Positions 2,226 to 37,819 of a stretch of 64,000 bases of DNA are shown one piece after another. Within the stretch, counting starts at the first letter, position 1; each line of letters begins with the position of its first letter. Origin of the DNA: Carpediemonas membranifera BICM. Lineage: Eukaryota > Protista > Fornicata. A program made the translations under genes and the position numbers. A model generated the notes under the pieces. That model did not search any database. It was not told the DNA's origin and was given only the letters and a program-made list of their open reading frames with translations. The DNA lies in the NCBI GenBank assembly GCA_019828565.1, contig JAHDYR010000008.1:316550-380549 (forward strand), read 5' to 3'.

Positions 2226-2921
2226 ATTGCTGGCTTAGCGCCCGTTCTTTGGTCGGCTCCTGTCTTGTGTACTTTGTGAAAGCCACAGGGGAAGGGTGTT
2301 TTCTGGAGGGACCAAAGCGCGTGAGACGGGGCTTGCTAGTACTATACTTCACGCACCTCAATAAAGGTGTTGGAGGCCCTCTTACTCGAGGCTAACCCTA
2401 GCCGCGGTCGCCTCTTCACAGCTGACCATCGTATCATTTACGATCAACTTCTTTGTCTATCCGGAGTCATGTGAGCGACAACGCCCAATGAGACGTGGGG
2501 AGCTGGTGTAGCTTCAAGCATGAAATGATGCAGCTCGGCAGTGTCGAAGCAACATCCCCACTTCGGTCACCCACCAATGTCGGGTTGAGTCTGGAGATAG
2601 TCAAGTTATGCTGCTGTCGATATATTGTAACATGGCGTGGGCGACAGAGACTCAGCCACCGTCACCTTCTCTTGTCATGGTTCATACTCGTCCACACGGG
2701 ATGCAGGTGACCCACTCCCTCAGTCGACAGCCCTGGTCCGCCTCTATTTAGTATCCATTTCCAGTAGTAGCAACCTGTTTCCCCGGTAACATACCCAGCC
2801 CGACTGGTATACGTCCCTCCAACTCCCTCGTCCTTCACAGATCTCCAGTCGAGCCCATGCCCTGCCGAGTGCCCGGAGTTTGACCTCCCTTGCGTAACCT
2901 AGTCAGTACAAACCGAGTTCC

Positions 2922-4557
2922 TGTGCTGCGCAGGATTAGAATTGTTGAGTCCAAAACACACAGTGATCCAAGCAGCATCAGGATCGCAGTGTGGTTCATC
3001 ATACTCTATCAATCGTGCGCTGCATATCACGCGCGCTGCAGCGCGTGTTTGCTCAACTTAGCAAGTTAATGATAGCGAGGAAGAGCACCTCTCTGGGAGT
3101 CGTAGTGGAAAGGAGATTGCTCCATCTGATCTGAAGTTGCATCGAAGGTGCACCAAAGGATGTTCTCGCTGGCGCTCTTATCTCGGTGAGAGAGATTGAG
3201 AAGTATGTCTGCTCGGGAGCCGACGTAGCCGTTCAACGCGCCATGGAGCTCCCTCGCACGCGGGATTCTGGCAGAGCATGGTGCGGTGTGTGTGCACCAC
3301 GCGTCTGAAGTGTGCTTTGCAGTATGGGCACACGATGGAAGTGCGGAATTCGGAGACCATCGTGACAGTCACGACGACGTTGTGCCGGAGCATGATGCCA
3401 GGAAGAGCTCGAGCAAAGTGGCGGTACGGAGCACACGAGGGAGTGCTGGCGGAACCGAACAGTGCAGCCCCATACGCGACGGTGAATGGGCTCCGGGGGG
3501 CGCCCGCCGAGATCATCCAGGAGTTGACGTCCAGCCCGGGTGAAGTGCTTCAGGCGCAGACAGTGATTGGCAAAAGTCGCACGGCGGAAACACTTTCTCG
3601 TCCCCTCGTTGATGATCTGAACGATGTTCTCATGGACAAACCTAATCGACTGTTTGAGAGCCTCTAGACTTGTCGTTTTGAACGATGCTGCGCTCATATT
3701 CACACGGAAAGAGGGGGTGGCAGTGTAGCCACACTTAGCGAGCACGCCAGATACACTCTGCCCGTCTGGGCGGCGGATCGTGTAGCCGCCCAGCGACCGA
3801 GCACCAGGGTCGAAGCCCATGCGAGCTTGAATGTCCGGGGCAGGAGTAGCCTCGGCGTCATCCTGACCGAGCCGAGCCCGCTTGTTGCTGCTACCCTTTT
3901 TGTACGTGGGCCGGTCAGCCACCCGACCGCCACGGTATTTCTCGCGACCCACCCAAACCGTCACAGCAACAGAGACCCCGTCTATCGTCACAGAGAGCAC
4001 TCTGCGGAGCTTGGTGATGTCGCCGTGATCACGCTCGTATTCAGCCACCTGCTCGTCGGTCAAATTCTTGGTTGCTGACCAATTCACGTGCACACGGAGG
4101 CGCCTCTTCATCGCTGGGGTGAGCGCTGTTACTCCGCGGCAATGGACGACAGATGAGCGCGTAACAGACGAGCACAGACGCGAAAGAAGACAGCAGCGTT
4201 CGACACAGACGATGGACGGCAGACGACGCATCTTTTTGTGCAGACCGACGACTGAAAGCACGACAGCCCGATCGTACAGACGAGGGCTGAAGTGGGTGAG
4301 TGGAGGTAGTGTGCTGCGCAGGATTAGAATTGTTGAGTCTAAAAACAAGAAACTAGTTTCTGCTGGAGCGAGAACCAAGATCCCGCCCAGAACCGTCGCT
4401 CTTACCATCGCCGACGCCCTCATGTCCGCTACCCTTCTGGTGTACGACAGGTGGGCCGTCAGACTGAACCTGTGCAGTCCTCTGGAGTTCATCCCAGGGG
4501 GGTCGACAGCCTAAGTCACCTTTACATGAATCCTCCACATAAACCCTCTGAACACCA
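2922..4557 (-). mobile_element. Fanzor-carrying non-autonomous element 1 (TG...CA ends, 5-bp TSD GTTCC)
   Basis: GTTCC at 2917-2921 and 4558-4562. Starts TG and ends CA. Terminal 30 bp (2922-2951) exactly repeated at 4310-4339. Contains a Fanzor pseudogene. Confidence 0.8.
3066..4130 (-). pseudogene. 5'-truncated, frameshifted Fanzor1/TnpB-like RuvC nuclease
   Basis: SVTIDGVSV, RuvC-I GFDPG, VAYGAALF, SEFRTS, CPYC...CQNPAC zinc finger, SHRDKSASENI (RuvC-III). Motifs are spread over three frames (shifts near 3500 and 3200-3250); stop at 3066-3068. 5' limit approximate. Confidence 0.8.
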
Positions 4558-4596
4558 GTTCCCACTCACTAAACTGCACTCAAGACGACAACCGCG

Positions 4597-6195
4597 ATGG
4601 TCTCGATCACAGGACAGTTTCGAGCCCAAGAAGAACGATACAAGAAACGCATAGCAGAATTGAAAGACTGGCTAACGGCGAAGAAGGTAGAAAGCGTCCA
4701 AATCGAGGACTACGTAGCTGCAGACCGCTGCAAACGAGCGCTGCTAAAGATGGAGGAACTTGGAGACAACCTATTGCGTCTTCATGAGATGAAAGTCTCT
4801 GCTACCATCAACGAGGACTACGATTCGGCCCAAGAGATGAGCCTTGCCTCCCGAGAAATTTCCGACTACTTCTCTCGCCCCAACGAGGAGCTGCTGGTCT
4901 CCCTCAGCAAGGTGCAGACCACCCCCATTGTCGATGAACCCGAGCCAGTCCAGCAGCCTGCCGCCCGGACCCCCACCCCGCCCCCGCCGGTCTTGGACGA
5001 CAGACAGACCCAGCCCAGCCAAGCGAGGGAGACATACGAGCCCGAGCCTGTATACGAGGCAGTACGGGAGCCTACGCCCAAGGTGCCTTCCCGCGGCCCC
5101 ACGCCAGCCCCAGTCAAGCCAGTAGCCCAGCCTGCCCCGGCAGTGTCTGACCCCTTTGCCTCAAAGCGGATCACAGAAGATACCCCGATCATGCCGAAGA
5201 CGAACCCAGCCTCCATATACGGCCCACATACCGGCACAACCGGCCTCGCCCACGACGACATGCCCGTGGGCGGCGGGTCGGGTCCGTCCATCGCAGAATA
5301 CGCCGAGGACGAGCCCCAGGCGGAGGAGGAGGACGAGGCGCCGCCACCCATCCCCACGCGCGAGTCGAACAAAGAGGATGTCATGTTTATGCAGGGTTTC
5401 TTCGGCGAGGACTTCGTGCGGCGTCTGCTGTCGGCCAAGCACAGGCTTGGTCTGGTCGCCCAGATCGTCGAGGCGTTCGAGCTCAGGGTGGTCGATCGCC
5501 CAGAAGAGTGTGCCAGGGTGACGTCGTATCTCTTCGCACGACTGCTCAAGGACAGCAACGCCAAGATTGTCACCAAGAGCAACGAGGCATTCACCGCAGT
5601 GTTGGATCTCCTGATCGAGCACGAGATTGACCTTGGCACACTCCGGCCGGTCGTGGAAGTGTGCGCGTCTCGCCTTGCCGACCGTCAGAAGATTGCACGC
5701 GACACAATGGAGCTGATCCTTGTGGTCCTATCCGGAGTCATCGGAGTCCACAATATTTTCCCAATCGTATCAAATCTGAAGAAGACGAAGAATCAAAAGG
5801 CTTGGGGCAACCATGCCGTCCTGGTCTACGAGCTGATCAAGGACGTCACCCTTTCCCTCGACGGCGCCAACAACAGCGTGAGTGTGAAGGTCCTCGATCC
5901 CTTCGTGACCCAGCTGCTGACCTCAACAGACCCGGATGCCCGGGCGGCAGCGATCGATATACTTTGTTTCGTGTATCTCCTGCCCGACCGTAACGCCGTG
6001 GTACGTCACATCCAGAGCATGACGAGCAAGGTTACTAACCGGCCACTGCTGAACACCATTGCGAGTCGGCTGAGCGAGGTGCTGACGTCGATGCCCGACG
6101 ACACCCCGCCCGACCAGCTCCCGCCGAGCATGGGCGTGGTGGAGCACAGGTCGGAGAGCGAGGCCAAGGTTTATAAGCTTTGTGTGGTTGGATGA
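4597..6195 (+). CDS. CEP104-like protein (UVR-like coiled coils + TOG/HEAT domain); N-terminal exons may lie upstream
   Basis: K..SVQIEDYVAA and K.SATINEDYDSA repeats, Pro-rich linker, HEAT-like C-half (LLKDSNAKIV, LTSTDPDARAAAIDIL). Confidence 0.55.
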   Translation: MVSITGQFRAQEERYKKRIAELKDWLTAKKVESVQIEDYVAADRCKRALLKMEELGDNLLRLHEMKVSATINEDYDSAQEMSLASREISDYFSRPNEELLVSLSKVQTTPIVDEPEPVQQPAARTPTPPPPVLDDRQTQPSQARETYEPEPVYEAVREPTPKVPSRGPTPAPVKPVAQPAPAVSDPFASKRITEDTPIMPKTNPASIYGPHTGTTGLAHDDMPVGGGSGPSIAEYAEDEPQAEEEDEAPPPIPTRESNKEDVMFMQGFFGEDFVRRLLSAKHRLGLVAQIVEAFELRVVDRPEECARVTSYLFARLLKDSNAKIVTKSNEAFTAVLDLLIEHEIDLGTLRPVVEVCASRLADRQKIARDTMELILVVLSGVIGVHNIFPIVSNLKKTKNQKAWGNHAVLVYELIKDVTLSLDGANNSVSVKVLDPFVTQLLTSTDPDARAAAIDILCFVYLLPDRNAVVRHIQSMTSKVTNRPLLNTIASRLSEVLTSMPDDTPPDQLPPSMGVVEHRSESEAKVYKLCVVG

Positions 6196-6374
6196 GGGGC
6201 GGGGGTGCATATTATGGTAAATTGTTTATGTCAACAAAGTGAATGTCGTAAACGGCAGACGTCACGAGGATGCTCTTGGGATTGTTACCACAGCCGGGTG
6301 GCCGCATGGCCGGAGTGAGTCTGCCTATTGGCACATGTAGGGCTGTGATGGGGCTGTTTGCCATGTTTTCCATG

Positions 6375-6416
6375 TGAAGTATCATAGAGTGCACAGCACT
6401 GCGTCTCTCCACTTCA
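6375..6416 (-). ncRNA. Candidate omegaRNA 3' scaffold hairpin at the element right end
   Basis: UGAAGU...AGUGC-UGU-GCACU...ACUUCA nested stem-loop starting at the Fanzor stop codon and ending exactly at the terminus. Function inferred from known Fanzor/TnpB layout. Confidence 0.45.
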
Positions 6417-8399
6417 ATTAGCTTGCCCGGAGGCGAAGACTAGCCGCTGGTTAGCCGTAATTGGTGTATTGGGGTTATAGTTGGGAAGACGGGCTGGATT
6501 TCTGAAAGCACTGGCTTGATACTGTGCATCCGTCATGAGGCCGCAATCCAAGATGTTCTGTGCAGCAGTCTTGTCTCTGTGGGAGAGATTGAGTTAAGTG
6601 GTGGTGGTAGGATCGGAATTGAGGCGTTGCTGTCTGTACCATGGAGCACCTTGACAATTCGGGTTGTGGCATCGCATCGTGCGCCTCGTGTAGCGAGTTC
6701 TACGGAACCTCGCGCGGCAGAGGGGGCAGACGAGTGAGGTTCAGAACTTGTTAGTCATCCGCACTTCAGCAGTGATGTTGAAAGCTCTCATGATGTGTGC
6801 TAGTAAGGTAGCAAAGCGACCATACGGCGCGCATGGATGCACCCGACGGGGCGTCTTGAATCTAGCGCTTCCGTAGAAGACAACCAGCCTGGTGGGGGCT
6901 GCCCGGGGAGGGGCAATACTGCGAGGGAGTCGCCGAGGAGTCCATCCTAGGGTGCGAGCAAGCTGCTCCCCAGCTCTGTGGAAGTGCTTTGGACGCAAGA
7001 TGTGGTTCGTCAGGCGCACTCTGCGGAAGCTCTTGACCATCCCAGCGTCGAATATTTCCTGCTCGTGGAGGAGCACAAACCTAATCGAGTTTTGTAGACT
7101 ATCTAGATTTGTACTTTTGAATGACGCAGGAGTCATATCGAACGCGAAGCTGGGGGTCTTGGTGTACCCACACTTCGGGACCACACCGGAGCTGGTGGTG
7201 CCATCTGGGTGGCGGATGAAGAATCCACCCAGAGCCCGAGCAACCGGGTCGAAACCCATGAGGTGGGCATCGGGGTCTGGCGCGGGGCGAGCATCTGCGT
7301 CATCCACACCCAGACGCTCCCGAGCCTTTCGCTTCATCGTCGGGTTGCCACTGGCACGTCTGTTGACGTATGGCAGAGCACCAACTTGGACCGTGAGGTC
7401 CACGGCGACCCCATCTGTCTTGACAGACAGCACCCGACGGATGTTCGGAGGAAGAGCCTCCAGCTGCTCTCGCGTCATGCGCTCAGTGGCGTGATGCTCC
7501 GGGTCGACCCCAAATTGGGCAAGCCAAGCCGGGTTCAGCACGTTGAGAGAACAGGGAACGTGCATGAACCCGGGGCGGACCGGAGCCATCGGGACAAGCG
7601 GAACAAGTTTGGGGCCCGCCAGCGGCTTGTCACCCGGAAGAGGTGGATGGGCGGTGTTGAATGCCGCAACCATATCCGTGAGCTCTCCCAGAGCCGCGGA
7701 GATCCGCCAGACGCAGGGCAGCGTGAGTAGAACGCCCTCGTCGACTCGTCCCGGAGTTGAGATCTTTGCAAGGTGCTCATCAACGATCGCCTTGACAGCG
7801 CGTTGTTCGGTGCGCAACCGGGTGATGTCGTCCCGGGGCACGTCTGGATCACGCTGAGTCAGGGCAGTGTCGACCCGAGTGATGATCTTCGCCAGGCGCC
7901 AGCAGTAACCTTCAAGGGCATTGACGAGCGACAGCTTGGTGCTCGTGGCATATTCGCCCAGCCACACGTCGAACTCGCGAGGGCACTGTTGACGAGCTGC
8001 CCTGAAGGCGGTGCAGAGGCGGATGATGAACTCGTCATGCCACAGTGGCATCTCGGCTATTGAGGTGACAACCTGCCGAACTGCGGCGTATTTTTTCGCG
8101 CCCAGGAAGCGGTCGACGAGTGAGTCGGCGGCGAGGTTTCGGTACTCTCCACTTCGTCGGTAGGCGACGATAACGATGGCCTGGTGCAGAGCCTGGTCAT
8201 GCACGGGCAAGGAGAGATTGGCGTGGTGGCAACACGCGGCGATGTATGACAGAAGGCAAGTGTGAAAGTACTTGGCCTTCGTGAACGAGCAGAGCCTGTT
8301 CTCCAATCCGGCGTAGAAGTCCGCGATGAAAGGAATCACGTTTCTACGGTTATGGAGAACGGAGGATATGGAGAACTTGACCGTATAGATGCTGGTCAT
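6414..8399 (-). pseudogene. Full-length (~660 codons) Fanzor1-like nuclease with two in-frame stops
   Basis: One frame: SVKTDGVAV, GFDPV, FYGSARF, NKF*TS (element 1 has SEFRTS), CPLC...CHNPNC, then TAA at 6594-6596, then SHRDKTAAQNI; natural stop at 6414-6416. Confidence 0.88.
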
Positions 8400-8885
8400 G
8401 CGAAGCTCTGCGTTTTGCGGTGAATGAACCGATCACTTGTTAACAACACACATCAAAGACGACAGACGTTTAATGAACGAGACTATGCAGTGATAATGGC
8501 GAGAATTAGAAGAACTGAAGTGTTTTATCTTCAGGCAGCGGCATAGAAGAGCCCGCTGTGCGATGGAAGGCCATGGTGATGATTGCAAGGACGTCATGAT
8601 CAAGACCCCGAAATCCGACAAGCGGAAGAGAGCGGATGGAAGTAAGATGGGGTAGACGATAGGTGGGAAGCTAGTTGCTTGGCGAGAGGACTGGAGAAGC
8701 ACTGATTGATGACCCCCGACGATGATGACTGACTATCGAAATATCACTCTCAAGAAGAAGGAAGGGAGAGCGGGAAGGGGTAATGAAGTATCATAGAGTG
8801 CACAGTGCAAGCAGTAAAGTAAGACTCTTGTTGTATCGAGTCCTCACCATGATCGATCGCAGGATAGTGGCAGTGAAGTTTGGGC

Positions 8886-22250: not shown

Positions 22251-22416
22251 ATGGTGAAGTTTGGTCGTCGTCGTTGGACGGGGCGGGTTCACGGTGGGAA
22301 TCCGCTGCCGTCGAGGTCAGCTTGTGGCCGTGCAGGAGTTGATGGACATACATGTAGAGAATGTGAGGGCAGGGGAGTTGCAAGTGAGTGAGCGGTGAAT
22401 TTATGCTGGGTTAATG

Positions 22417-22479
22417 TGAAGTATCATAGAGTGCACAGTGCAAGCAGTAAAGTAAGACTCTTGTTGTATCGAGACCTCA
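22417..22479. mobile_element. 63-bp mini-element (Fanzor-less form of element 2), TSD TAATG
   Basis: 62/63 identical to 8784-8846; TAATG at 22412-22416 and 22480-22484; TG...CA ends. Confidence 0.88.
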
Positions 22480-22481
22480 TA

Positions 22482-25091
22482 ATGTATATGCGCAGTTTAT
22501 GCTCAATGTCGGCCGTTGAGATTGTGCGATGCGTGCACTGGACGGAGGATCACTTTCTACTATCTGAATCAATCAAGAACGAGGACTTGTATGGCATGGT
22601 TTCACTTCATGAAGAATTCAACTCTATGCAGTATGGCCCCGGCTGGTGCGCTCTCATCACCAATGACAACACCCCGACGTTTTGGACCACTGATCGGGTG
22701 GTTGTGAAGCGCTTTAGTGATGGTGTATTCGTTGAATTCCCGATATCCCGCGTCATTCCCATCGTTGCCTCTCTTGTACCGCCCCACTTCGTCCCAGGGC
22801 TCGTATCCACGACCATAGACCTCCCTGTCTTCATCCAATCCATAGAGGACGAGCTATACCGCCTTGATGAATCACTGGACGACCATGCCGCGGCCCTCAG
22901 CCCCGCCACATACCGGGCCGACCGAGAGGGGCTTGTGCGACGCCTCCACAGGACCTGGGAGTTGGTCACTACGGGGCTGCAGAACACCATGCGGCCTCTC
23001 GCTGATAACCCGGCCAACTTTCCCACGGTGGCCGCTGCAAAGCGGTTTGTCACAAGCGACAGTCATGACTTCGGGGCAGTCGTCAAACTGGCCTCAGCAG
23101 TTGGTGTTGGTGAGAGGCCAGTCGTGATCACAGAGGCTGACCTGAGATCTGACGCTGATCTGCTTCCCGGTCACCATGAGGCGCCCACCGACCACGCCTC
23201 TGCGGACCAGGCGAGGGTAACGGCAAGAGCGAATGCCGCCCTCGCCGCCATGTACAGGCTGTCCTGGCTTCTGTCAAATAGCACCGAGCCAGCCCACGCC
23301 GAGACCCTTGCCGCCGTCGCCGCTCTCACCCACCCGACGTCCCCCGCCCGCTTCCTCGGGGACTGGGTCCGCAGTTGCTCTGAGTGGTGGCCCGTGGCGT
23401 GTACCGCCCTCGCTCCTGTCCCATGGTCGGACTCAGTAGCCCCAGTCGAAGTGTCCAGGAGGGTGGCGGCCCTGCTCGGGGGAGTCGATGCCGAGTTCCC
23501 GGCCCCACCCCAGCTCCAGCAGAGTGTCGCCCCAAGCTACCCTGTACCCGATCTGGGTCGACTCACGGGGCGGGTGCAGTCGGCTGAGTTCTTCTTCTGG
23601 TTGCTGTACTTTCTCAGGAACCTGTACAACCACAGCGGCGACATCAACCCCGCAGTTGATATCACCGCGTTACATAGGGCGCTAAACTGCATAACTGGAC
23701 ACAACACAAAGTTCTGGCCCGAGCTGCAGGCCGAGCTGGAGGCGGCCATCACAGCAATAGCCCAATCATCCATGCTTCCACGTCTGAACCAGACCACTAA
23801 GCTGACACCTGACACCATCAGAACAATACTGGCGCCCCGACACACACAGCTGTGCCCCGATCCAGCCTGGTCGATCGGGGTGAGAGTCTTCGCCGCAGTT
23901 TACCGGGAGGTCTTCCAGGACAAGACCCAGACCCATACAAGCTCGGCGGTCACCACAGTGCTGGCGCTGTCGGATCTGAGGCTCTGTGCGGCCGTCGTCA
24001 GGTCAGTTATTGGGTGGGTTCTTGACGTAGCTTCCACTATACATGATGAAGCTGACAGACTGACTCCGCACGACTCAGCTGAGTTGATCGCCCAGATCTT
24101 GTGCGACAGGGTCACCCTGCACATCAAGACACCATCCATACCTCCGGACGAGACCCGCATCGCCCCCTCTGGCCATGTGCCCGTGCTCGGCCTGGTCCGA
24201 CTGCTGCTCGACGAGGGAGTTCTGATGCTCACCCCGCCCCACGAGACGATGTCACTGCCCCACATGGCCGGGCGGGTGGTCGAATACTACCGAAACGCCC
24301 CCATGGTGCTGGCTAACGTCTCCAACGTCCTCGGCGGGCTGTGGGGCGCCGTGCTCCCGGCCGTGGACAGGCTCGACGACATATGGTCCGGGTCAGCTCC
24401 ATGGCAGCTCCCCCTGGTATACGGCGCCCTCGTCTGGCTTGGCGTTGTCCGACCCCCCTCGCTGGTCGTCGGGTACGGCCCTGTTCTATACCGATTCTCC
24501 TCAGTGGGCTCGGCGTCGAACCGGCGGTCCTTCAAGGTTGTCGTCACTAGCGAGGGAACCCGGAGACCACTGCCCAACTTCTCCAATGGAGTCTGGTCGA
24601 TCTTCTACCCCGCCCCCGTCACCCTACCGGATCCGACCGGTCTCACGTCCAGTCAACCGTGCAGGTTTCACGAGACTGACCCACCCCGACCCAGTCTGGT
24701 GGGTGTTGGTCGCGTGCTTGTACCAGATCACGAGGATTTTAGCGCTGCTAGAGTTGTCCGGGCTGTGTTTGGGCTGACAACACCCGTGTCAGAAATCATG
24801 CGGATCGTGACCCGTGCTATCACTGATAGACCACACCTCCGTGGTGTACTGCATCTGGCGGACCCAGTGTCGGCTGCCCTTGTTGCAGCCATGCCAGATG
24901 CCCAGGCAGCAGTCGTCTTCGCCGGACTCGTCTGGGGCGGGGTTGTCGAGGCCGAGGCGGATATTGTCATCGGAACCACGCGGTTCTTCATTGAAGGCGA
25001 TCAGTTGAAGAAGGAGACGGGCACCCACCCAGGAAAGCTCGAATATTGCTTTGATCGATGGGGCATTTGTTGTGAACAGGAAATGCCCTGA
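22482..25091 (+). CDS. Hypothetical protein (~870 aa)
   Basis: Long ORF; first in-frame ATG at 22482; TAAA 4 nt after the stop; no recognised motif. Confidence 0.65.
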   Translation: MYMRSLCSMSAVEIVRCVHWTEDHFLLSESIKNEDLYGMVSLHEEFNSMQYGPGWCALITNDNTPTFWTTDRVVVKRFSDGVFVEFPISRVIPIVASLVPPHFVPGLVSTTIDLPVFIQSIEDELYRLDESLDDHAAALSPATYRADREGLVRRLHRTWELVTTGLQNTMRPLADNPANFPTVAAAKRFVTSDSHDFGAVVKLASAVGVGERPVVITEADLRSDADLLPGHHEAPTDHASADQARVTARANAALAAMYRLSWLLSNSTEPAHAETLAAVAALTHPTSPARFLGDWVRSCSEWWPVACTALAPVPWSDSVAPVEVSRRVAALLGGVDAEFPAPPQLQQSVAPSYPVPDLGRLTGRVQSAEFFFWLLYFLRNLYNHSGDINPAVDITALHRALNCITGHNTKFWPELQAELEAAITAIAQSSMLPRLNQTTKLTPDTIRTILAPRHTQLCPDPAWSIGVRVFAAVYREVFQDKTQTHTSSAVTTVLALSDLRLCAAVVRSVIGWVLDVASTIHDEADRLTPHDSAELIAQILCDRVTLHIKTPSIPPDETRIAPSGHVPVLGLVRLLLDEGVLMLTPPHETMSLPHMAGRVVEYYRNAPMVLANVSNVLGGLWGAVLPAVDRLDDIWSGSAPWQLPLVYGALVWLGVVRPPSLVVGYGPVLYRFSSVGSASNRRSFKVVVTSEGTRRPLPNFSNGVWSIFYPAPVTLPDPTGLTSSQPCRFHETDPPRPSLVGVGRVLVPDHEDFSAARVVRAVFGLTTPVSEIMRIVTRAITDRPHLRGVLHLADPVSAALVAAMPDAQAAVVFAGLVWGGVVEAEADIVIGTTRFFIEGDQLKKETGTHPGKLEYCFDRWGICCEQEMP

Positions 25092-26194
25092 GAGATAAAC
25101 ACTGCAAGCTGCTCGTTCATATAGACTGAAAGAAACATTTGAGAGCACCAGAATGCTGGGATACGGGCCATTCGTGTGAGCAGATCAATGAGCAGTTTAA
25201 GGTTACAGAGGAGTACTCTGCGAGTGAGAGGGCGCGTAGATGCGCCGACACGACTCCGGCGCGAGAAGCGCGGACCCAAAATTCGGTCGCTCGATTTTGG
25301 CGCGGAGTCGCCAAGTCAAGAACAGAAGCTCGAAAACTCGAGTTGCAAGCAGGGTTAGAGGGTTCTACACAGAACCGTGGACGCCTGGGGTGTCGATGCC
25401 TCGGGCAGTTTATGTCAGTCGTGGCGCAGAAATTTGGATTTCGACACGCGAGCGCGATGTCGACGCACTGCAAGACGCAGACCGGGCGGAGATCCCGAGC
25501 GAACATTGCTATGGTTACAATAAATGTTCTTCCCCCCGTTTGGAATGATTGTGTTATCTAGCCAGCAAGCCTGGCTGGCATTTTCAGGCCCCAACAAGGC
25601 CTAGTTCGTGAGTTCTGAGAAATCAACCTGAAATGAAACATAGGAACCCTGGTTGCGGGTAGACCTTGGAATAGAGTAGGGGTATAGGTAGGAGGAGCAC
25701 TGTTAGTGTGCCAGATTGTCCTGGCGGCTAGGACAGCTAGCTGGCGTTACATCGCGCTGACAGGTTACCTCGGGTAACGGGCCGTGAGCGGAGGGCAATG
25801 AGATCGCCTCGCTCCGGCATGGTGATGCGCCGACCAGGCGAGCCGCGCAGTTTATGCGGGCAGAATGGTAGAAAATTCGGAACATCCAGATCCGACGGCA
25901 ACGAGGCTCAATAACCTAGAAGCCTCAATCGCTACCATCTCGCAACAGCTTGCAAAGCTTAATCCGCCTCCTCCGCCGCCCGAGACCGAGCCGCCGAAGA
26001 AATCTCAAATTGATTTCTTCCCTGAACAAGATGAAGCGGATATTGACCAAACACTGGCAGAGATGGATGCATACGGCGAGCTTCCGACAAAGAGACCACT
26101 TAAGGCGGAAGCAAAGTGGCTTCGCCGCGTGATGGTGATCGTCAACGCCCTCGACGACGAGCCGCTCAAAGCAAGACTCCAAATTTTCCGCACC

Positions 26195-29100
26195 ATGGGC
26201 AAAAGTAGTTCTGGCTACAGAGGCCCAATCTTAGCGAAAGACACTGGTCCGCAACCACAAAGTACCACTGCTGCTCAAAGCAGTATCGCCGACCAACGCT
26301 TCCTGACGAGGAAGCACCTCAAATATGTTTCATCCGCCCCTCCTGTCCTCAAAAGACAACTACTAGCAGGCATTGCCTTTATTGGGGACCCCGTAATCAT
26401 CCATCCCTTCAAAACTGAGCTTGCAACACACTCATCGACGGGCAATTTCGTCTCGGTGGCAATCCCAAACCTAAAACGGGACAACGCCCGCTATAAGCGG
26501 GCTAAGGATGCCTGTAATGACCTACTCCAAGATGCTGAGCACCTTGCAGCTGCATTTGGGCTCTCCATCCGGGAAGGTATCCTCAAACTCTTTCCCCTCA
26601 TTGCCTATGATCTTGTCCACACGGTTGGAACGCTTAAGGCTGCCCTAATCCACTGCAGGTTCACGGGACTCCCCCCAGCTAGCAGCATGGACTGGAGCAA
26701 GTTCGCAGATTTCATCTCCGCCAGATGCCCTACAGTGTTAGACCAACGGAACGATCCTTGGCCTCCAACCATATCCACTGTCCCGAACTCTCCGAGCCTG
26801 ACATGGCAGGCAGTCGGTCAAAGAGAGCCTCTTGGTCCCCGCATCGCTCACTCCGGCCGGCCCGGCCCCATTGTATCTCCGGATGGTCTCAACCTCACGC
26901 CGTTCATGGGCCTCGAGGTAATCCACTTACTGTATGGCGCCTCTCCCGTGTTGGGAGGACATGCGATGACTGAGCTTTATGCCGAATGGGGTGGAGCCAC
27001 AGCGGCCGACCTTCAGTCTTCCTTATCGAATACCTTATCAGACAGCCTTATCTCTCCCATTCGCCGGAAGGCCTATCCAGTCGATGACTCTACTATATCC
27101 ATAAGTTCCTGTTCAAACTCTGATGTTGAGCTCGCAAGCCCGATCCCTGTTAGCGTGGAAGAGGTTGCGCGGCAGATTCGGAAAGAAATATCGTCTTGCG
27201 AAGAGAACAGCATTTATCCATCATCCCCGATCGTAGCTGAGGAGCCTAACGCCCGTTGGGGCCCTCTCATGAGCATCCCAGTTCACGCCGACGGCAACTG
27301 TGGCCTTCACTCACTTGCTGTCTCTCTGGGTATGACGGGCCTGACGAGACGAGAAGCCGTGTCGAAACTTGCCTCCGCCATCCAGAATGGTACAGTGGAT
27401 CTTAACTCCTCGTGGAGATCCACGGTGCGCACTTTAACCACACACACCACCGCTAGCGACATTGGTAGTGCCTTCCTATCCACCACAGACCTCCGCAATA
27501 TTGCATCGCTCTTTGGAAAAAATGTGCTTATTGCTCATCGATATGATGCCAACACAGTCTCAGTAACCATCCCAGCATTATCCGAGTTCTCTACACTTCC
27601 TCTCAATATTGACGCGCTCAAAACGATGCTCAAAACCGATTACATCCTCATTAGACTGAGTGCTCTGCACTTCACGCCTCTTTTTCCGTCTGTGAGGAGC
27701 GCAGAAGCAAGGCGCCTGCAATATGCTGAATATCGTCCAAGAAGAGCCCCCTCTAGTGTGGCTCGCAACAACATCGCCGCTGAAGGCCTCGATAGCGCCC
27801 CCTCTAGTGTGGCCCGCAACAACATCGCCGCTGAAGGCCTCGATAGCGCCCCCTCTAGTGTGGCCCGCAACAACATCGCCGCTGAAGGCCTCGATAGCGC
27901 CCCCTCTAGTGTGGCCCGCAACAACCGTGATGGCGTCCATGGCGCTCTCATAGGCTTGTCTGGCAAGAGAGAGGGTCCTGTTTCTCATATCCTAGTGGTC
28001 GACTTTGAAGGACTAGGAACTGCCGTAGACCGCAGAGCCACCAAACAGAGTCGCGTCTCATATCCCGTAGAGGCCGGCGCCACACTCCTAGCCCGCGTCA
28101 AGGATCCTGAAACGGGGATAATGATGTGGGACGTCGCAGGGGTCCACTGGGGCGGCTTAGAAGTTGATATCCCAGCGCAGTTAATGCAGACAGCTTTATA
28201 CCAAGCGGCAGTTGTTCATGGGTGTCCTCCCATGAGCTTCAGAGTACACCCCGACCACCCCGGGATCTCATTCCCCAGCCCGACCGACTGGCTTCACCAC
28301 CTCACGGTCATAGTGAGCTCCCTCCCGAACTGCATCATGGTCGCCAAAGACCCGAGACTTGAGAACTCCGTCCTAGAGTCATGGGTCTCGGAAAGCGATG
28401 CCCCCTTCCTTGACAAGGTCTATGACATAAGTGATCTAGAGTCCATAGACAAAAGATCCTTTGGGCATATCCATGACTACTGCCGTTCACCCGAGTTCTC
28501 TGAGGCGATGTCGATAGCCCAATGTCTCACAATGGTGAAGTGCCCCTGCCCGTACCACATTGGAACAGATCCAGGCTACCATTGTGCTCTCAGTGACACT
28601 GTAGCTTTCGCGGCGGTACTGCACACAGTCTCATGTCTCGACCGAACATCTAGGGGAGCTATCACATCCACGTACTCTGAAATCACTGATGCATGGAGGA
28701 AAGACTTGGATGTCCTCATCGGCAACTGGTCCTCTCTCCTGCCCGACCTGGCCGTGCTACTACTCCAAGACCTCCACCTGCCAACGCTTGAGGAGCTGCA
28801 CCACATCCTCAAGGAGTACGTAATAGCACCTAAGGGTGGCTGCTCCTTCCCCACAGGTGATAGGGCCAGACAGGCTATGACGTGCCGTCAATTTATTGCA
28901 GTGCGGAGCCCAGCTCGGCGAGGGTGGGAATGGTTTGATCCTCTTGCCAAGATGATAGCGGTGGCGGATGCGGCAGGCATAGTCCCTCCAAACAGCCTAG
29001 AACAGCCATTCATCAGGATAGCGACGGTGAATAACGACAGCTCCTTCAGCAATCAGTTGACGGCTCAGCAAGTTTACTGGGAGTGCCCTCCTCACCGAGA

Positions 29101-32100
29101 CCTACCGCAATCTGCTGCAGAGCTTCTGGCTCTCAACGTTCCTCCCTCGGCAGACAACTCCAAAGGAGTAGTCAAGAGGTCCTACAGAGCGCCGGATCAT
29201 TGGTTTCTAGTCCCGAGAATCCCCAACAAGCCAGTGCGAGGGCTCCGCAAAGTCAGACTGAGAGGGCCCATGACTCGAGGAGACATGGATGCCCTCATAC
29301 AGAAGGCAGAAACAGCATGGGTCAGCGAAGCGTGGGACCTTTCTCCGGTGTTCAAAGCTCTCCAGAGTGCCCGAGCTCACGACGGTAACTGGAGTAAGGT
29401 TGAGCCACCGGCTTCTTCCACGCCAGCTCCAAGCTTAGCCACGCGAGTCTCGCCTGCGACCTTCAGGAATCAGAGAGGGCGAAGTCAAGCAGGTAGACGA
29501 CCAGTAAATGGTCACCTCTACTCGTGGAATTGCACATCACTCAACATCACCAAGATGACTCTTGCTCTAGTACAAGACGTGGACATCATGGCCATTCAGG
29601 AGCTATGGTGGTGGGCCCAGTCCCCGGAGCTGCCCACAACGAATGACAAGGTCCTGCTATACCACGGAGTGATCAAGTCAGAGTCCGAGACAAAGCATCT
29701 AGGCGTAGGCATCATGCTGAGGAAGGAATTAGCTGAGCTCTGCACATACGTCGAGAACCAACCCCACTCTCCAAGGTTGATTCAAGCTGACCTAGGCTGC
29801 GTGTTTGTAACAGCTGGCAAACTGAAGGTCCGTGTCATGTCCATCTATAGTCCATGCACGGGAGCACAAGCCAAGAAAGAGTTCCACACTCTACTGTCCT
29901 CCGAGGTGAAGAAAGCTATTGAGCAAGGGCTCCAAGTTCTTGTCATGGGAGACTTCAACACGAACCTACTAGATCCATCGACGCTGTGGGCTACCACCCT
30001 AAAGGAGTGTGGCTTGAGACTGGTAGTGCCCGACGGCCCGACCTTCATGGACAGAGTAATTGATGGCATCGCAGCAACACCTAAGCTGGCTGATCTCATC
30101 AAGAAGCCGCTCACAGTATCCCTTGAACCCAAAGGACACAGAGCGGTTGTAGCAAGATCAGGCATAACGGGTTACTTTCGCACGAGGAGCAAGGCAACAG
30201 CAGTCCTCAACGAAAGACATGTGGCTAACGTACTTGAATGCAGCAAGGATCATCGAAAGGCGAGGACTCTCCTGAGGAACATCAGCCACCTTGATGTCGA
30301 CCAAGCCTTTCAAAGCCTGACGTCGACTATCAACCGATGGGCGTTGGTGGACACTGCGGCCTCACATGAAGTGAGAGAAGTCGAGAGAGCAGAAGACTAC
30401 GACCACTGGTTTGTCGCCGGAGAGCAGATCGGTATTTCCCCTGAACGGCTCTATGAGCTCATCATTGAGGATCATCGCCACCAACATCAGCTCAAGGAGA
30501 GGACGAGCAGAGGCCCCAAAGCTCTCGTGTGCTCTGAGCTATCATCAGCAATGCTATCAGTAGCGTTAGCATCCTCGGAGAGCCACGCCCACTCAACACT
30601 CAAAGCCTACCATGCCCGAGCCAAGCGAGTCTCTGAGAGCATGGATGTCATGTCCCCTGAATTCTTTAGATACGTCCATTGGAAGCTTTTTGAAGGGGCA
30701 GGCCAGAGTGTCTGGTCTTCGCAGAGACCTGGAAGGCTTACTCAGAGGACCCGGCCTTCCTGCTACCACCACAGTAGGAGGCAGAGTGATCACCAACCGA
30801 GAAGAAGTAGCCAAGGCCTTCGAGGAGTGGTATGCGTCAGTATCATATGTGGCAGGAGCAGTAGAACCATCCATCTCTCGCCCCGATATAGAGCTCGAAA
30901 TCACGGACACTCTCCTGGAAGGGGCTCTCAAATCTGCCAAGAATAGATCAGCCCCAGGCAGTGATGGACTAACCCCGGCAATTTTCAAATATTGCCCAGT
31001 CCTCAAGGAGGCGCTCAAGACTCTGCTACAGAAGTGCATTGACCAACTCAAGACCCCAGCAGAGTGGCATACCGCCGTGGTAATTCCATTGAAAAAGCCC
31101 GGCTCTACTAGCGATGCTCCTGTGGCGTTCAGACCTATCTCCCTACTTTCCACAGCCCACAAGGTGCTCGGCACAATGATGATCCGCACGATTGACCGAG
31201 ACAACCCTCTTCCCCCTGAACAATACGGTGCAAGGCCGGGTGTTTCATCGGTTGATGCACTATGGGCTATTGAGCACGCGAGACGTGGGTTCAAAGCGAC
31301 CCACATTGGGACTCTGGACGTGGCTAAGGCCTTTGACCGTGTCCCGAGGAGAGATGCATTGGACTCGTTGAGGGGGAACAGAAGGGCCATTGAGATGTTG
31401 AAGGAGATGCATTTGCACACAAGGATCTCTATGCGAGGTAGCAGCACTAGCGCCGCTACCAACACAGGAGTACGGCAAGGATGCACCACTGCTCCCTTCA
31501 TCTTCACAAGATACCTTGCGGAAGTCCCTCACATCATTGCAAGCTTAACTGCTCTAGGGAAGGAAGCAATTGAGAAGCTTCCTCCCGACATAGAGACCCT
31601 GAGACGAGTGGCAGCAAGGCCGTGCGTTCCCTGGATTGTCACAGTCCTGTTCGTTGATGACATTACAATAGTAGCTCCCTCCCTTAAGTGGTTGGAGGCA
31701 GCACTTACGGCGGCATGGACATGCATGCTAGCGCTATCCTTGGAGCCCAACGATAAGACCACCTATGTCTCAGAGGACGACACCCCCTCCCTCACCATCC
31801 ATGGCAATCCAGTCATTAAGAGAGACGCGGTCAAGCTCCTAGGGGTCCTCTTCGATACGTCCCGAGACTTCTCCACCCAGAATAGGACTATGGGCGAAAG
31901 GATAGACAGAGAGCTACGACTACTGAGAGCTAGCGGCGTGATGCACTCCAAGTTCTGTCCTCGCATTGTAGAGGTCTACACCCTCCCCAAGCTGCTGTAC
32001 GGGTGGAGCGTCTGGGCTAATCATAAGGCTGTCTCCCAGGTAGGCAAGCTTGCATCGGCAGCCCTAAGGATCAGCCCAACTGCATCGGAGGCGAAGTACC

Positions 32101-32793
32101 TGGAGCTAGGCTGGCTGCATCCAGAGGCAATGCTCCTGCTGGACAGATTCAAGCAAGGGGGTGAGATGGGCGAGAATCCATCCGGGCAAGGATCTCCCAG
32201 ACTGCATTGCTGAGGCACAAGGCAGCCTTGGCCTGTCCCACTCCGACAGCCTTGACCTAGCAGCCTGTCGAGCAGCCCAGCTCTCTCACGACATAATCTG
32301 CCGTGGTAACAAAGTGGCTGTCAGGAGATACGTCACGGAGTCGGCACTCACCCGCCCTTTTACCCGCTCTAACTACCCGGCCAGGCAGCCATACCTCGAC
32401 CATCTAACGGCTGGGCCAGCGAAGCGCCTCGCGATGCTACGGCTATCGTGTCTACCAATGCCAACGAGAGGGGCTCTTCCTGACGCGTGGCAGCCGGTCA
32501 GGGGAATCCTACAGGACCTGAAGGATGAACCGGAAGCCGCCGCAGCTCTTGAGGCATGTCCTCTCTGTCAGGGTGAGGCCATCGCCGCGGCTGTGATTGA
32601 GATCCTGACGTCCCCTACCAAGACCTTAGCAGTGCTGAGATCCAGGACGTGGGTTGTCCTGAACCAGACCCACTTGGCTAAGTGCGACCACTTCAAGATT
32701 AACCCCATCCTCCTTTTCAAGGACCCCCTGACCCTGAGCAGGCGTGACGACGCCAAGCTCACACATATGTTGAGTGTACTTTGTGACGCGTGA
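26195..32793 (+). CDS. LINE polyprotein: OTU-like protease, Maelstrom/DEDDh-like domain, AP endonuclease, reverse transcriptase (frameshifts near 30710 and 32160)
   Basis: ADGNCGLHSL...LHF; VVDFEG...YPVEAG...CPYH...HCALSD; SWNC, IQE, IYSP, MGDFN, GHRAV; FRPISLL, DVAKAFD, GVRQG, FVDD. Confidence 0.85.
27746..27925 (+). repeat. 51-bp coding tandem repeat, ~3.5 copies (APSSVARNNIAAEGLDS)
   Basis: Units start at 27746, 27797, 27848 and 27899. Confidence 0.95.
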
Positions 32794-33419
32794 CTGGTAG
32801 GTTCCCTCGCTTACATAGGAAAACGCCACCGTCCTCCCCGGTCTCAGGACCTCCTCGATCATCGTCCTGAGGGAGCCCCATCGGGCTCGGAGCACAGAGT
32901 CCCGCAGCGCCAAGAGCTGGAAGTTGTGAGCTGGCCGACCCGCGTGGGTCATCTTTTTACCCTTCTTCGAAGGGGTTTTAGGCCCTCCTCTCCCTGCAGC
33001 TTCAGAACAGTACTCTTGGGCGCCGCAGCTCTGGCTTCCAATGTTATGAGAACCGTTGCCCTCCTGCGGCTGATCACCGCTCGTCTGGCTCGGGTTGTGG
33101 CCAGTGCCTGGAGGTGGACACCCCGGCACTGTATCAAAAAATAAACTCAAAAACTCAAAACTCAAAAAGCAAGACTCCTGGTGGAACTCCAAGCACGCCG
33201 TACCCTTCTGGACCTCAAGGACGACAACTGGTCGGACGCAACCTGCGAACTGTTTCTCGACTTGTTCAACACGTCCCAGACCAAAACCCCCCGTGCCATC
33301 TCCTACTGCGCAGCCAAAGCCAGAGCCAAGGGTAAGAGAAAGGACCAGCCCCAGAACAAAGGGGGGTTTCACAAGAAGCACAAGAAGTAGCCCTTGCCAC
33401 AGATGTTCAGTTCCCGTCA

Positions 33420-35437
33420 ATGAACAAAAAGTGGCCGGTGTGGGCAAGACTCGGTGCCTCCCCCGAGGTAGTAAGCTGGCTGCGGGATGGCGTCCCTATC
33501 CACCTCACCTCTGCGCCCCCTCCACCAGAACCGCAAAGGCGAGTGGACCCCCGCCTACTCCCGAAGATCGAAGAGCTAGTCGCCAAGGGCGTCCTCTCCC
33601 CGTGCCCGATAGACGAACTGCGTCACAGCGCACCCCTGTTCGCGGTGTCGAAGGGCAAAGACGATGTCCGCCCCGTGCACGACCTCCGAGCCCTGAACGA
33701 GTTGACAGCAGAGCTGAGGGTGTTTCGTCTGTTCGGCATCAGACGGGCGGTCCGCAATCTCCACAAGAACGACTACATGATCAAGATAGACCTAGCATCG
33801 GGATACCACCAACTTGGCGTCGCCTCGCGAGACTCCCCCCTCCTAGGCGTGGTCCTACCGGACGGCCGCGCATTCAGGTACAACACACTCGGCTTCGGAT
33901 GGACAGCGGCGCCGTACGTGTTCCAGAGCACGACCATACAGCTTGCAAAGATCATCGCACACAGGTTCGGGGTGACCATCGCGGTCTATCTCGACGACTT
34001 CTTAGTGTCCCATGCCTCCCCATCGTACCTAGCTTCGGTCACCCCGCAGATCATCGACCTCATGCTATCGCTGGGGGCGATACCGGGCCTCAACAAGTGC
34101 GTCCTCACGCCGACCCAGCAGGTAGACTACCTAGGTGTCCACATAGACACCGCAAGCGAGTCCCTAAGAATCTCAAAAGACAAGGCCGAGGCCTACACGG
34201 CCACGATCTCCAAGGCCCTCCGGGTCGGGTCCATCACAGCTTCAGACTGGCAGAAGCTCCTAGGCCGTCTGTCATTCTTCGCAGGGACCACACAGTTCGC
34301 CCGCCTCGCACTCAGACCACTGCAGGCCACCCCTACGACGGAGACCGTCCACCTCTCCAGCCAAATCCGCAGGCAGCTGGCGGCGTGGCAAGTCCTCCTC
34401 CGCGATCGCCCACCCAAGAGGTTCGCCGAAGCAAGAGCGGACTGGGAAATACGCGATACGCTCCAGATTTCTGTCACCTCAGACGCATCAACGTCCGGCT
34501 GGGGAGCATGCCTGTTCAATGGGGAGAAGGGAGCGGCATCACAGGGTGCCTTCCCCCCTCATCTCAAGGGGGAACACATTGGCGTCAAGGAGCTCTTCGC
34601 GATCGCTCAGGCGATCAATCTCGTGCCCCAGCAGGAGTCACGCTCCTCTCTCACAGTCTTTGCCGACAACTCAGCTGCCATCAGCTGGGTAAACAGACGG
34701 GGATCGCCGAACCTCCCCCAGCCGCACACCAGATCCTACAGGACATCTACAACACGGCAGAAACCAAGCGCCTCGACGTCCACTGCTTCCATATTGCCGG
34801 ACACCTGAATGTCCAGGCGGACAGGCTCTCCAGGTTCGCCAAGCTCGACTGGTCGTCACCCCGAGAAGTCTTGGAAACCATCATGCGCAAGTGGGGGCCG
34901 GTCGAGATCGACGTCACAGCACGCCCCGACAAGGTTCTGGCCTTACCAGGCTTTGCAGAAATAGCCTGGTCAATCCACGACAACGGCTTCCAGATGGACT
35001 GGAGGGGAGTCAGGATTTATATAGCTCCTCCTATAGCCCTTCTTGGAGTGACGTGTCGTCGCCTCCAGACAATACGCGCCTCGACCCAGACTGGGAACCC
35101 TCGACACTGGAGATCAGCGGCGATAGTCCTGTGCCCGGACCTCAACTCGCCCGAGGTCCGAGCCATCAAACGTTTGACACCCCTCAAGTTGTACCTCAGA
35201 GTCCAGGCGAAACACCTCCTGCAGTCCGAGCTAGCCTGGACAGCGACAGACAAGGGCAAGATCCGCTTCGTGGCGCTTATCCTGAAAACCCGTTCCAAGC
35301 CCTCCTCGCTGACGACCGACTATCACATTTCAGAAACGAATCGTCGCGCCGCACAGCAGCGGGCTGGGTCGCCAAATTCCTCCAATCCCGCAACGCGAGC
35401 CACTCACACGCGCAACAGCTCAAAGAGTTCCTTCTGA
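33420..35437 (+). CDS. RT-RNase H-adenine methyltransferase-like polyprotein of YR retrotransposon copy 1 (1-nt indel near 34715)
   Basis: KIDLASGYHQ, LGFG, VYLDD; TSDASTSGWGA, ADN, NVQADRLSR; WGPVEID...DW....YIAPP. Confidence 0.88.
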
Positions 35438-35765
35438 CCGAGGGTACCACGTCGGGCCCACAGTCGATACACAGGAAAGGCTACTGGATTTGCGAGGCCG
35501 CCCCACTCGTGTCTGACTGGCGCCCCCCGATCGCTGCCAAGCAGATAATCGCCGCCGCCCGGAACGTCGCCTCTGTAGAAGGCCTGACCGGGGGTGCGAA
35601 GCCTGTCACGTCCGCGAGAGTCCGCAGGGTCATAGACAGACGTCGGAAGTCACCCCAAGCCTTCCAGGCCGCCCTCTTTTCTGCTCTCTGCTTTATCACC
35701 GTGAGTAGAGGCGCAGAGATCTTTGGGCTCAGACGAAGAGACGTCGAGTTCGACGCTGATGGCAA

Positions 35766-35886
35766 TGTAGTCCGTTAGGGACAAGAAAGCTTTACAGGGA
35801 AAAGAGACGACACCAAATGTGTCGACAGAAACCTGAAGACGATGTAAATAATACAACTATGTAAATATTGGGTAAGACCCACGACA
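35766..35886 (-). repeat. 3' LTR (121 bp)
   Basis: Identical to 41789-41909. Confidence 0.95.
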
Positions 35887-36537
35887 CCGCCCCTCCATGG
35901 ACCCCAAAGGGGCCATGGCCTCAGGCGTATGCCACTCGAACGAATGTGCGATGAGGGACTTAGCCAGTCCCGAGACCTCCGATGCCACTCATTGGTCTAC
36001 GAGACTCTGTACCATGGCAGGGTACAGGGTGAATGCCTTGTTCAAGTCGGGAGCCAGAATTAGCGGGGTGAATCTGAAAGATTCGGAAAATATCTGCGGA
36101 TCTCAAAATCCTATCGTGGTACCACTTGTTAGCGCGCTGTGTAATTAGAATGATCTTACGTGAGGCATTCCGCCCCTCCACGGTCGTAAAACGGCCGTTT
36201 GAATATTGATTAGATCAAATGAGCGCCTAAAACTGCTCACTGTGATGATCTTTGTGTTTCTCTTGGTATGTACTTCACGTCGCCGTCCTTATTACATAGA
36301 GATCGAAAAACGTCATTAGAAGCCTCAATTCGGCTTCGTTCGCGAGTTCTCGCGTTTTTTTGCTCTCGACGGTGCGACGTTCTCTCTCGCGGCTGCAAAA
36401 GGCCGCGTTCATCCCTAATAACATCAATCGGGCTTGAATTAGCCGTAAAACAGTGTCTTTCAGGTTCCATTGAGGTTGGTTGCTACTTCTTTCGAGTTGT
36501 TGTTTTCTCAGTGAAAACGGGAAGTGACGAACGAGCA

Positions 36538-37786: not shown

Positions 37787-37819
37787 GATAAAGGTTTGGA
37801 TTGAGTAGCTGCTGAAGGT

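What the first reader, a model, noticed from the sequence alone, without database searches (positions are those of the whole stretch)
2917..8851. Fanzor elements with a shared unusual architecture: TG...CA ends, 5-bp TSD and an internally duplicated right end
Seen: two divergent Fanzor1-like elements with different terminal sequences have the same plan on the Fanzor sense strand: [left unit ending in R]-Fanzor-[R]. Element 1: left unit 4310-4557 (248 bp), R = 30 bp, TSD GTTCC. Element 2: left unit 8784-8846 (63 bp), R = 22 bp, TSD CCATG. Neither encodes a transposase. Established: Fanzors ride Mariner, Helitron, MuDR, IS607 and other elements, and TG...CA ends with 4-6-bp TSDs mark retroviral-type DDE integrases (LTR elements, Ginger). 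Inference: the Fanzor plus omegaRNA cassette appends itself to a complete mini-transposon by duplicating its right end, so the element can move with or without the nuclease. I do not recognise this carrier or architecture as described.
Basis: partly seen in the sequence, partly recalled or inferred. Interest (0 to 1): 0.9.

Follow-up and report, generated by a model that had tools for sequence, protein, structure and literature searches.

The report
Fanzor nucleases riding retrotransposon LTR ends
In the protist Carpediemonas, three families of RNA-guided Fanzor nuclease genes sit between a short LTR-like unit and a 30-base copy of that unit's tip, and likely spread by cutting and copying themselves onto retrotransposon ends, a carrier not previously reported for Fanzors in the papers searched.

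Summary
Both elements have TG...CA ends, perfect 5-bp TSDs and an internal copy (R) of one end. R is 30 nt in both families; the window's element 2 lost 6 nt of it. The proteins are Fanzor1, but both window copies are broken. New here: a solo copy of the 63-bp unit with its own TSD; a third family with the same plan; no terminal inverted repeats; and a purine tract abutting each internal unit, like the PPT before a 3' LTR. The units therefore look like LTRs of Ty3-type retroelements read on the opposite strand, not DNA-transposon ends. Four family-1 insertions lie 13-15 nt from one host motif. A copy's nearest relative lies on the same contig in 23 of 91 cases (3.7 expected), which points to DNA-level copying. 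Best reading (0.4): the guide is R, so Fanzor cuts LTR tips and repair appends the cassette. Rivals: a DDE mini-transposon (0.25) and helper retrotransposition (0.2). No helper element, omegaRNA or TAM was shown, and no genome DNA beyond the window was available.

The parts
2917..2921 (.). Element 1 TSD (GTTCC)
2922..2951 (-). Terminal R1, 30 nt; the TG tip of the unit on the + strand; proposed guide (inferred)
2952..3065 (-). Putative omegaRNA scaffold, family 1 (between stop codon and R; inferred from position only)
   Evidence: no Rfam match
3066..4138 (-). Fanzor1 family-1 remnant: 5' deletion, two frameshifts; RuvC-I 3806-3817, RuvC-II 3337-3351, C4 finger 3256-3330, RuvC-III 3177-3188
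4289..4309 (+). Purine tract (17 of 21), PPT-like, ending GGTAG at the unit's TG
4310..4557 (+). Unit 1, 248 bp, TG...CA, no TIR; LTR-like (inferred). Internal R1 = 4310-4339
4558..4562 (.). Element 1 TSD (GTTCC)
4570..4577 (+). Host motif TAAACTGC, 13 nt from the element end; at offset 15 in three other family-1 flanks
6370..6374 (.). Element 2 TSD (CCATG)
6375..6398 (-). Terminal R2; 24 nt in this copy, 30 nt in most contigs of the family
6414..8399 (-). Fanzor1 family-2 gene, full length but with Glu-to-Lys at 6747-6749 and stops at 6741-6743 and 6594-6596; the 3' end likely overlaps the omegaRNA scaffold
8752..8783 (+). Purine tract (30 of 32), PPT-like, ending GGTAA at the unit's TG
8784..8846 (+). 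Unit 2, 63 bp, TG...CA, no TIR. Internal R2 = 8784-8813
8847..8851 (.). Element 2 TSD (CCATG)
22417..22479 (+). Solo unit 2 with its own 5-bp TSD TAATG (22412-22416, 22480-22484) and no purine tract

Best explanation
These are Fanzor1 cassettes placed antisense between a short, likely LTR-derived unit with its purine tract and a 30-nt copy of that unit's tip, and they likely spread as RNA-guided homing parasites of LTR ends. Shown: the architecture, Fanzor1 membership, three families, a solo unit, absence of TIRs. Inferred: (1) the unit is the LTR of a Ty3-type retroelement whose integrase made the TG...CA ends and the 5-bp TSD; (2) the omegaRNA scaffold ends just before R, so R is the guide; (3) Fanzor cuts inside R of a solo or terminal LTR, next to a T-rich TAM that precedes the internal R but not the terminal R; (4) in a host without NHEJ the broken end invades the unit of a cassette-bearing copy, copies through tract, gene, scaffold and R, and rejoins the flank through the last 9-16 nt of R. 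This gives [unit incl. R]-Fanzor-[R] inside the old TSD. Broken and shortened copies would be spread in trans by intact Fanzors.
For: LTR-like ends: TG...CA with 5-bp TSD at 3 of 3 window sites; no TIR, p 0.43 and 0.83, like the window's own Ty3 LTR, p 0.23; purine tract abutting the internal TG in both elements (element 2: 23 of 25 purines, matched by 9 of 127,952 25-mers; element 1: 19 of 25, 1.1%), absent at the solo and at both outer ends. Third family: four gene models run through a 3' end related to R1 (two frames agree at 33 of 33 positions) and two begin with the same end followed by Leu/Pro codons, i.e. an antisense purine tract. The window's Ty3 element has 121-bp LTRs and a 387-codon antisense open frame in the same slot upstream of its PPT. 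Insertion near a host motif at fixed spacing: TAAAC(TGC) at offset 15 in 3 of 3 readable outer flanks and 13 in element 1; the 8-mer occurs 12 times in 128,000 positions. DNA-level local copying: nearest relative on the same contig for 23 of 91 proteins against 3.7 +/- 2.1, 0 of 10,000 shuffles; 19 of 91 without neighbours within 3 locus tags. A second gene model on the window's contig has element 1's unit, R, tract, deletion and frameshift (13 differences in 419 aa). TTTA lies 0-1 nt before internal R in both families and not before terminal R (0.12% of positions; noticed post hoc). Fanzor1 enzymes cut 14-21 nt from the TAM (PMC10432273), which leaves R homology on both sides of a cut. The host lacks NHEJ (PMC8516963). 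32 of 111 retrieved family proteins keep all four motif patterns, 11 of them at 500 aa or more.
Against: No autonomous element with these units as LTRs and no PBS was found: the 3 outer flanks read look like ordinary insertion sites, and none of the 7 proteins of one annotated Ty3 family is adjacent in accession order to a Fanzor that I listed (compared by eye, list incomplete). 63 bp is very short for an LTR (recalled). The product keeps TAM plus R and should be re-cut. In SpuFz1 the terminal 30-nt IR is part of the scaffold and the guide is the flank (PMC10432273), so a 30-nt R fits that model too. Element 1's tract is no richer than pyrimidine runs upstream of 10 host genes (13-21 of 25), so it may be promoter sequence. 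68 of 91 proteins have their nearest relative elsewhere, and local similarity can also come from local hopping, segmental duplication or conversion between resident copies. Homing does not by itself explain why the tract is kept in three families. Element 2 lacks TAAACTGC at its unit end.
Confidence: 0.4

Rival explanations
1. Non-autonomous DNA transposon. The unit is a mini-element moved by an integrase-like DDE transposase in trans; [unit]-Fanzor-[R] is a composite that uses the outer ends. R is part of the omegaRNA scaffold, the guide is flank DNA, and Fanzor restores the element after excision.
For: Solo unit with TSD; local enrichment of near relatives fits local hopping; SpuFz1 has a 30-nt end inside the scaffold; all Fanzor carriers listed in the review are DNA transposons (PMC13565253); CMe-1A begins with a whole other element (PMC3627910); TDD-4/5 make 5-bp TSDs (PMC2836005).
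Against: No TIRs, whereas Ginger has about 40-300 bp TIRs and IS481EU has TIRs with about 4, 15 or 25 bp TSDs; PPT-like tract in three families; the six TSD or first-flank pentamers seen share no fixed TAM; pairing of R with upstream scaffold is not beyond controls (57 and 17 of 500 shuffles; 92 of 424 and 91 of 423 random windows as good). No transposase was found, though I could not search the genome.
Confidence: 0.25
2. Helper-dependent LTR retrotransposon. The element is a Ty3 derivative that lost gag-pol and all of the 5' LTR except the 30-nt U3 tip that integrase needs. It is copied by the RT and integrase of an intact element through template switches at R. Fanzor is a passenger or a helper of inheritance.
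For: Explains retention of the PPT-like tract in three families; Ty3 gag-pol genes exist in this genome; chimeric gene models join families (P0004, P0081, P0039, P0102); contigs of runs guessed to be RNA cover the elements deeply, including short deletion forms (weak).
Against: Canonical reverse transcription regenerates two full LTRs and needs a PBS (established knowledge); none seen. Particle-based retrotransposition should scatter copies, but near relatives cluster on one contig. Chimeric models may be gene-calling artefacts.
Confidence: 0.2
3. Guard against self-deletion. Recombination between the two R copies deletes the cassette and leaves a solo unit. A guide spanning the end of R and the flank cuts only that solo allele, and repair from the sister chromatid restores the cassette; excised circles may re-enter other solo units, as proposed for KolobokP.
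For: R-R recombination yields exactly the solo unit with an unchanged TSD; it avoids self-cutting at the internal R; KolobokP model (PMC9587614).
Against: Explains maintenance better than spread; nothing here locates the scaffold-guide boundary inside R; no circle junction was listed among the joints.
Confidence: 0.1

Closest known systems
Fanzor1 (SpuFz1, GtFz1, PpFz1) in Mariner and other DNA transposons
   Same: RuvC D-E-D with C4 finger, about 640-660 aa, gene next to one element end, short gene-less derivatives like 'ghost' loci
   Different: No TIRs, random 5-bp TSD, a direct internal copy of the end, PPT-like tract; only about 19-22% identity to the nearest proteins outside this organism
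CMe-1A / TE-N2_CMe of Cyanidioschyzon merolae (PMC3627910)
   Same: A Fanzor1 element whose 5' part is an entire other element, without TIRs
   Different: There TSDs were undetermined and the carrier unclassified; the section read mentions no duplicated end or purine tract
Ty3/gypsy LTR retrotransposons, solo LTRs and TRIMs
   Same: TG...CA, 5-bp TSD, no TIR, purine tract before the unit, solo units, apparent promoter-proximal insertion
   Different: Only one whole unit plus a 30-nt tip; no PBS, gag or pol; carries a Fanzor, for which the 2026 review finds no evidence in retrotransposons
KolobokP (PMC9587614)
   Same: Direct terminal repeats, solo units with TSD, an encoded nuclease proposed to cut the repeat and drive recombination
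   Different: LTDRs of about 450 or 660 bp at both ends, own DDE transposase, His-Me nuclease rather than RNA-guided
Ginger2/TDD and IS481EU DNA transposons
   Same: Integrase-like TG...CA type ends; TDD-4/5 make 5-bp TSDs
   Different: They have TIRs and encode a transposase; tested here and not met

Membership tests
Fanzor1 | D-X(125,275)-[TS][TS]-XX-C4 finger-RD motif | tested here: met
   Alignments; motif positions; pattern kept in 32 of 111 proteins. Broken in both window copies.
Fanzor1 | Profile or fold closer to Fanzor1 than to Fanzor2/TnpB | tested here: met
   Profile A2 (12 family proteins plus 4 distant hits) hits PpFz1 1.4e-12, GtFz1 3.7e-9, SpuFz1 6.2e-9, then Cas12f 1.7e-4. The family-only profile was weak (E 0.6). 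Foldseek on a poor model (pLDDT 50) gives Cas12f and SpuFz at ranks 1-5 and cannot separate clades. KAG9392881.1 (P0054) is a Fanzor HMM hit in Table S2 of PMC10711439. No tree with named Fanzor1/2 references was built.
Fanzor1 | omegaRNA from the element's 3' end and RNA-guided cleavage | not testable with these tools
   Only contigs of runs guessed to be RNA; folds not beyond shuffles (z -1.7 to +1.5); no Rfam hit
LTR retroelement | TG...CA ends with 4-6 bp TSD, no long TIR | tested here: met
LTR retroelement | PPT directly 5' of the 3' LTR | tested here: met
   Strong for family 2, moderate for family 1, inferred from peptides for family 3; function as a primer untested
LTR retroelement | Two full LTRs and a PBS | tested here: not met
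   Second repeat is 30 nt; no PBS after it or in 3 outer flanks
LTR retroelement | Autonomous partner with the same LTR around gag-pol | tested here: inconclusive
Ginger1/Ginger2/TDD | TIRs of about 40-300 bp | tested here: not met
IS481EU | TIRs and TSDs of about 4, 15 or 25 bp | tested here: not met
KolobokP | Two LTDRs of about 450 or 660 bp, DDE transposase and His-Me nuclease | tested here: not met

The most novel reading that the evidence does not exclude
An RNA-guided homing parasite of LTR retrotransposons: a Fanzor1 whose fixed guide is the U3 tip of its host LTR, so that it cuts every LTR of the family and appends itself by break repair. It has done so on at least two unrelated LTR sequences, and in an ORC-less protist it may be a standing source of programmed double-strand breaks.
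Probability: 0.35. Interest if true: 0.9.

Novelty: new variant of a known kind. Interest (0 to 1): 0.75.

Why it matters
The current model holds that Fanzors help only elements that excise, and a 2026 review finds no evidence for retrotransposons encoding one (PMC13565253). Elements built from LTR-like ends would extend the carriers to retroelements. A constant guide aimed at the carrier's own end would be a new use of the system and may show how Fanzor1 cassettes get captured by so many unrelated elements. The test is direct: the genome is public, full-length genes with the catalytic pattern exist, and small-RNA sequencing plus a TAM screen would settle the guide. The host lacks NHEJ and ORC and is proposed to depend on recombination (PMC8516963), so about a hundred nuclease loci may matter to its biology.

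Tried and rejected
No whole genome was held, so no genome-wide table of TSDs or units. Pfam gave only sub-threshold TnpB-finger hits for family proteins. Metagenome scans with the family profile and with R1 found nothing; the viral scan could not run on that alignment. Earlier findings: 0 in 5 look-ups. Pairing of R with an upstream anti-R looked good by eye but failed controls. No integrase or pol remnant between tract and gene: no tblastn hit better than E 0.13 for 106 pol proteins on the elements; codon scores negative or near zero. No RNA holder was listed as such; contig depths (10^4 on 3' ends against 12 on the host gene; a fall near 4340) cannot show expression or a start site and are not used as evidence. 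A 432-nt unlike arm at 4545 first looked like a longer unit; it is another insertion flank. The tree is the quick version and only shows three clusters on long branches. Literature: 'Carpediemonas'+'Fanzor' 0 papers; 'Fanzor1'+'long terminal repeat' 2 papers, both read in part; listings showed no description of this plan by title or abstract start. Supplements: no Carpediemonas hit in PMC10530073 (2 files) or PMC10432273 (9 files, 1 not searchable); 2 rows in PMC10711439. Repbase and subscription papers were not searchable.
Full report
1. Observation. Element 1 is 2922-4557 with GTTCC on both sides and its first 30 nt repeated at 4310; element 2 is 6375-8846 with CCATG on both sides and its first 22 nt repeated at 8784. 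TG..CA stretches with a 5-bp flank repeat are common by chance (98 of 50-299 bp in the window), but these boundaries are fixed by the repeats themselves. A third site confirms them: a solo copy of the 63-bp unit at 22417-22479, 62 of 63 nt identical, with TSD TAATG. Contigs of public runs show 6 extra nt behind 6394 in nearly all depth there, so R is 30 nt in both families. Three further junctions of unit 1 end at the same CA before different flanks; their other ends, hence TSDs, could not be seen.

2. The proteins. All 24 hits of element 2's ORF are named Carpediemonas membranifera, and two close relatives lie on a contig of the same length as the window's own proteins. The retrieved proteins form three clusters about 40-49% identical. 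A profile search of 1.84 billion representatives gave 34 hits, the 3 distant long ones carrying the TnpB finger (2 above the Pfam cut-off). A profile including them hits the three solved Fanzor1 enzymes first (E 1e-12 to 6e-9); the family-only profile was weak. A low-confidence model (pLDDT 50) matches Cas12f and SpuFz. One family-3 protein is already a row among Fanzor HMM hits in a supplement of PMC10711439, whose main text does not mention the organism, LTRs or direct repeats. Both window copies are broken, but 32 of 111 retrieved proteins keep all four motif patterns, 11 at 500 aa or more.

3. The plan is general. Gene models that run through element ends show it elsewhere. P0105 reads unit 1, R1 and the tract; P0086 and P0102 start in unit 1; P0233 repeats element 1 with the same deletion and frameshift. 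In family 3, four models run through a 3' end whose two reading frames agree at 33 of 33 positions and resemble R1, then diverge; two other models begin with that end followed by Leu/Pro codons. This is indirect, from peptides. R2 does not resemble R1 by eye, so the plan sits on at least two unrelated end sequences. Variants that lack the internal R and tract also exist (joints 4204-4358 and 4125-4361; P0102), so R is not always duplicated.

4. What the unit is. It has no TIR (p 0.43, 0.83; the window's Ty3 LTR 0.23). On the strand opposite to Fanzor each internal unit is preceded directly by purines ending GG-TA(A/G): 30 of 32 in element 2, 17 of 21 in element 1. Only 9 of 127,952 25-mers are as purine-rich as element 2's; element 1's is matched by 1.1% and by some host upstream regions. 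The solo and the outer ends lack it. This is the layout of a PPT before a 3' LTR (established knowledge). The window's own chromodomain Ty3 element has 121-bp LTRs, a 4-bp TSD and an antisense open frame upstream of its PPT, the slot that Fanzor occupies. Family-1 insertions lie at a fixed distance from TAAAC(TGC): offset 15 in 3 of 3 contig flanks and 13 in element 1; both window elements end 40 nt before the next ATG (starts unverified). The motif was noticed post hoc, RNA-type contigs favour gene-adjacent copies, and element 2 lacks it on that side. I put an LTR origin at about 0.65. Against it: no PBS, no helper found, and a 63-bp unit.

5. How it spreads. For 91 of 96 proteins with a contig label and a relative under 10% mismatch, the nearest relative was on the same contig in 23 cases, against 3.7 +/- 2.1 in 10,000 shuffles within clusters (none as high); 19 after removing neighbours within 3 locus tags. 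Contig length served as label and the sample is incomplete. This favours DNA-level copying over particle-based retrotransposition, but does not separate homing from local hopping, duplication or conversion. TTTA precedes the internal R by 0-1 nt in both families and not the terminal R. Fanzor1 enzymes cut 14-21 nt from the TAM (PMC10432273, section read), so a cut in a 30-nt R leaves homology on both sides. The host lacks NHEJ, keeps HR and alternative end joining and is probably haploid (PMC8516963, passages). Hence the best reading (0.4): guide = R, cut at an LTR tip, repair by copying from a cassette-bearing copy, giving [unit]-Fanzor-[R] inside the old TSD. All four mechanistic steps are inferred. 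Its main weakness is that the product keeps its own target. Rivals: DDE mini-transposon with a flank guide (0.25), helper-driven retrotransposition with a 5' LTR reduced to the U3 tip (0.2), guard against R-R deletion (0.1).

6. Comparison. Member of Fanzor1: yes by motif and profile; activity untested. Member of LTR retrotransposons: no, since two full LTRs and a PBS are not met, but it looks built from their ends. Not Ginger, IS481EU or KolobokP (passages of PMC2836005, PMC10045372, PMC9587614). Closest precedents: CMe-1A, which begins with a whole other element (PMC3627910, section and passages), and the KolobokP model of a nuclease cutting its own terminal repeat. [quoted passage not shown] PMC10530073 and PMC11423790 were seen as passages. 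My searches (supplements 97-99) found no description of this architecture; Repbase and subscription papers were out of reach.

7. Verdict. Real, repeated in three families, and not described in what I could search: a new variant of Fanzor1 elements with a probably LTR-derived carrier. Interest 0.75; 0.9 if the guide is the LTR tip (probability about 0.35).

Noticed in passing
window 35766-41909 (- strand): Ty3/gypsy element with chromodomain integrase, identical 121-bp LTRs and 4-bp TSD GCAA, inserted in a copy of a tyrosine-recombinase retroelement; carries a 387-codon antisense open frame (36623-37783, +) with no Pfam hit
   Followed up: partly
window 33166-35767 with 41910-42724, 42992-46402, 25726-26180: Near-identical copies (99.8-100%) and a fragment of a DIRS/Ngaro-like element with RT and tyrosine recombinase and split direct repeats
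   Followed up: no
window 25865-32213: Non-LTR-type element: long ORF with AP endonuclease, then an RT ORF in another frame
   Followed up: no
window 4570, 13747, 23683 (+); 508, 21321, 22499, 23902, 25199, 25412, 25854, 42678, 46356 (-): TAAACTGC occurs 12 times, several times shortly before an ATG; candidate core promoter motif of this organism
   Followed up: partly
proteins P0004, P0081, P0039, P0102: Gene models chimeric between Fanzor families, P0004 switching at the RuvC-I motif; real recombinants or gene-calling artefacts
   Followed up: partly
window 3407-4161 and 6738/8365: Short internally deleted derivatives of both families appear in contigs at high depth; ghost-like loci
   Followed up: no
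window 54371-63976: Cys-rich repetitive ORF of 3201 codons, likely a surface protein
   Followed up: no
window 27743-27925: Tandem array with a 51-bp period inside the long non-LTR ORF
   Followed up: no
run X6: A run labelled with a second organism code holds pieces of both families at 90-99% identity and low depth, including the 3407-4161 deletion joint
   Followed up: no
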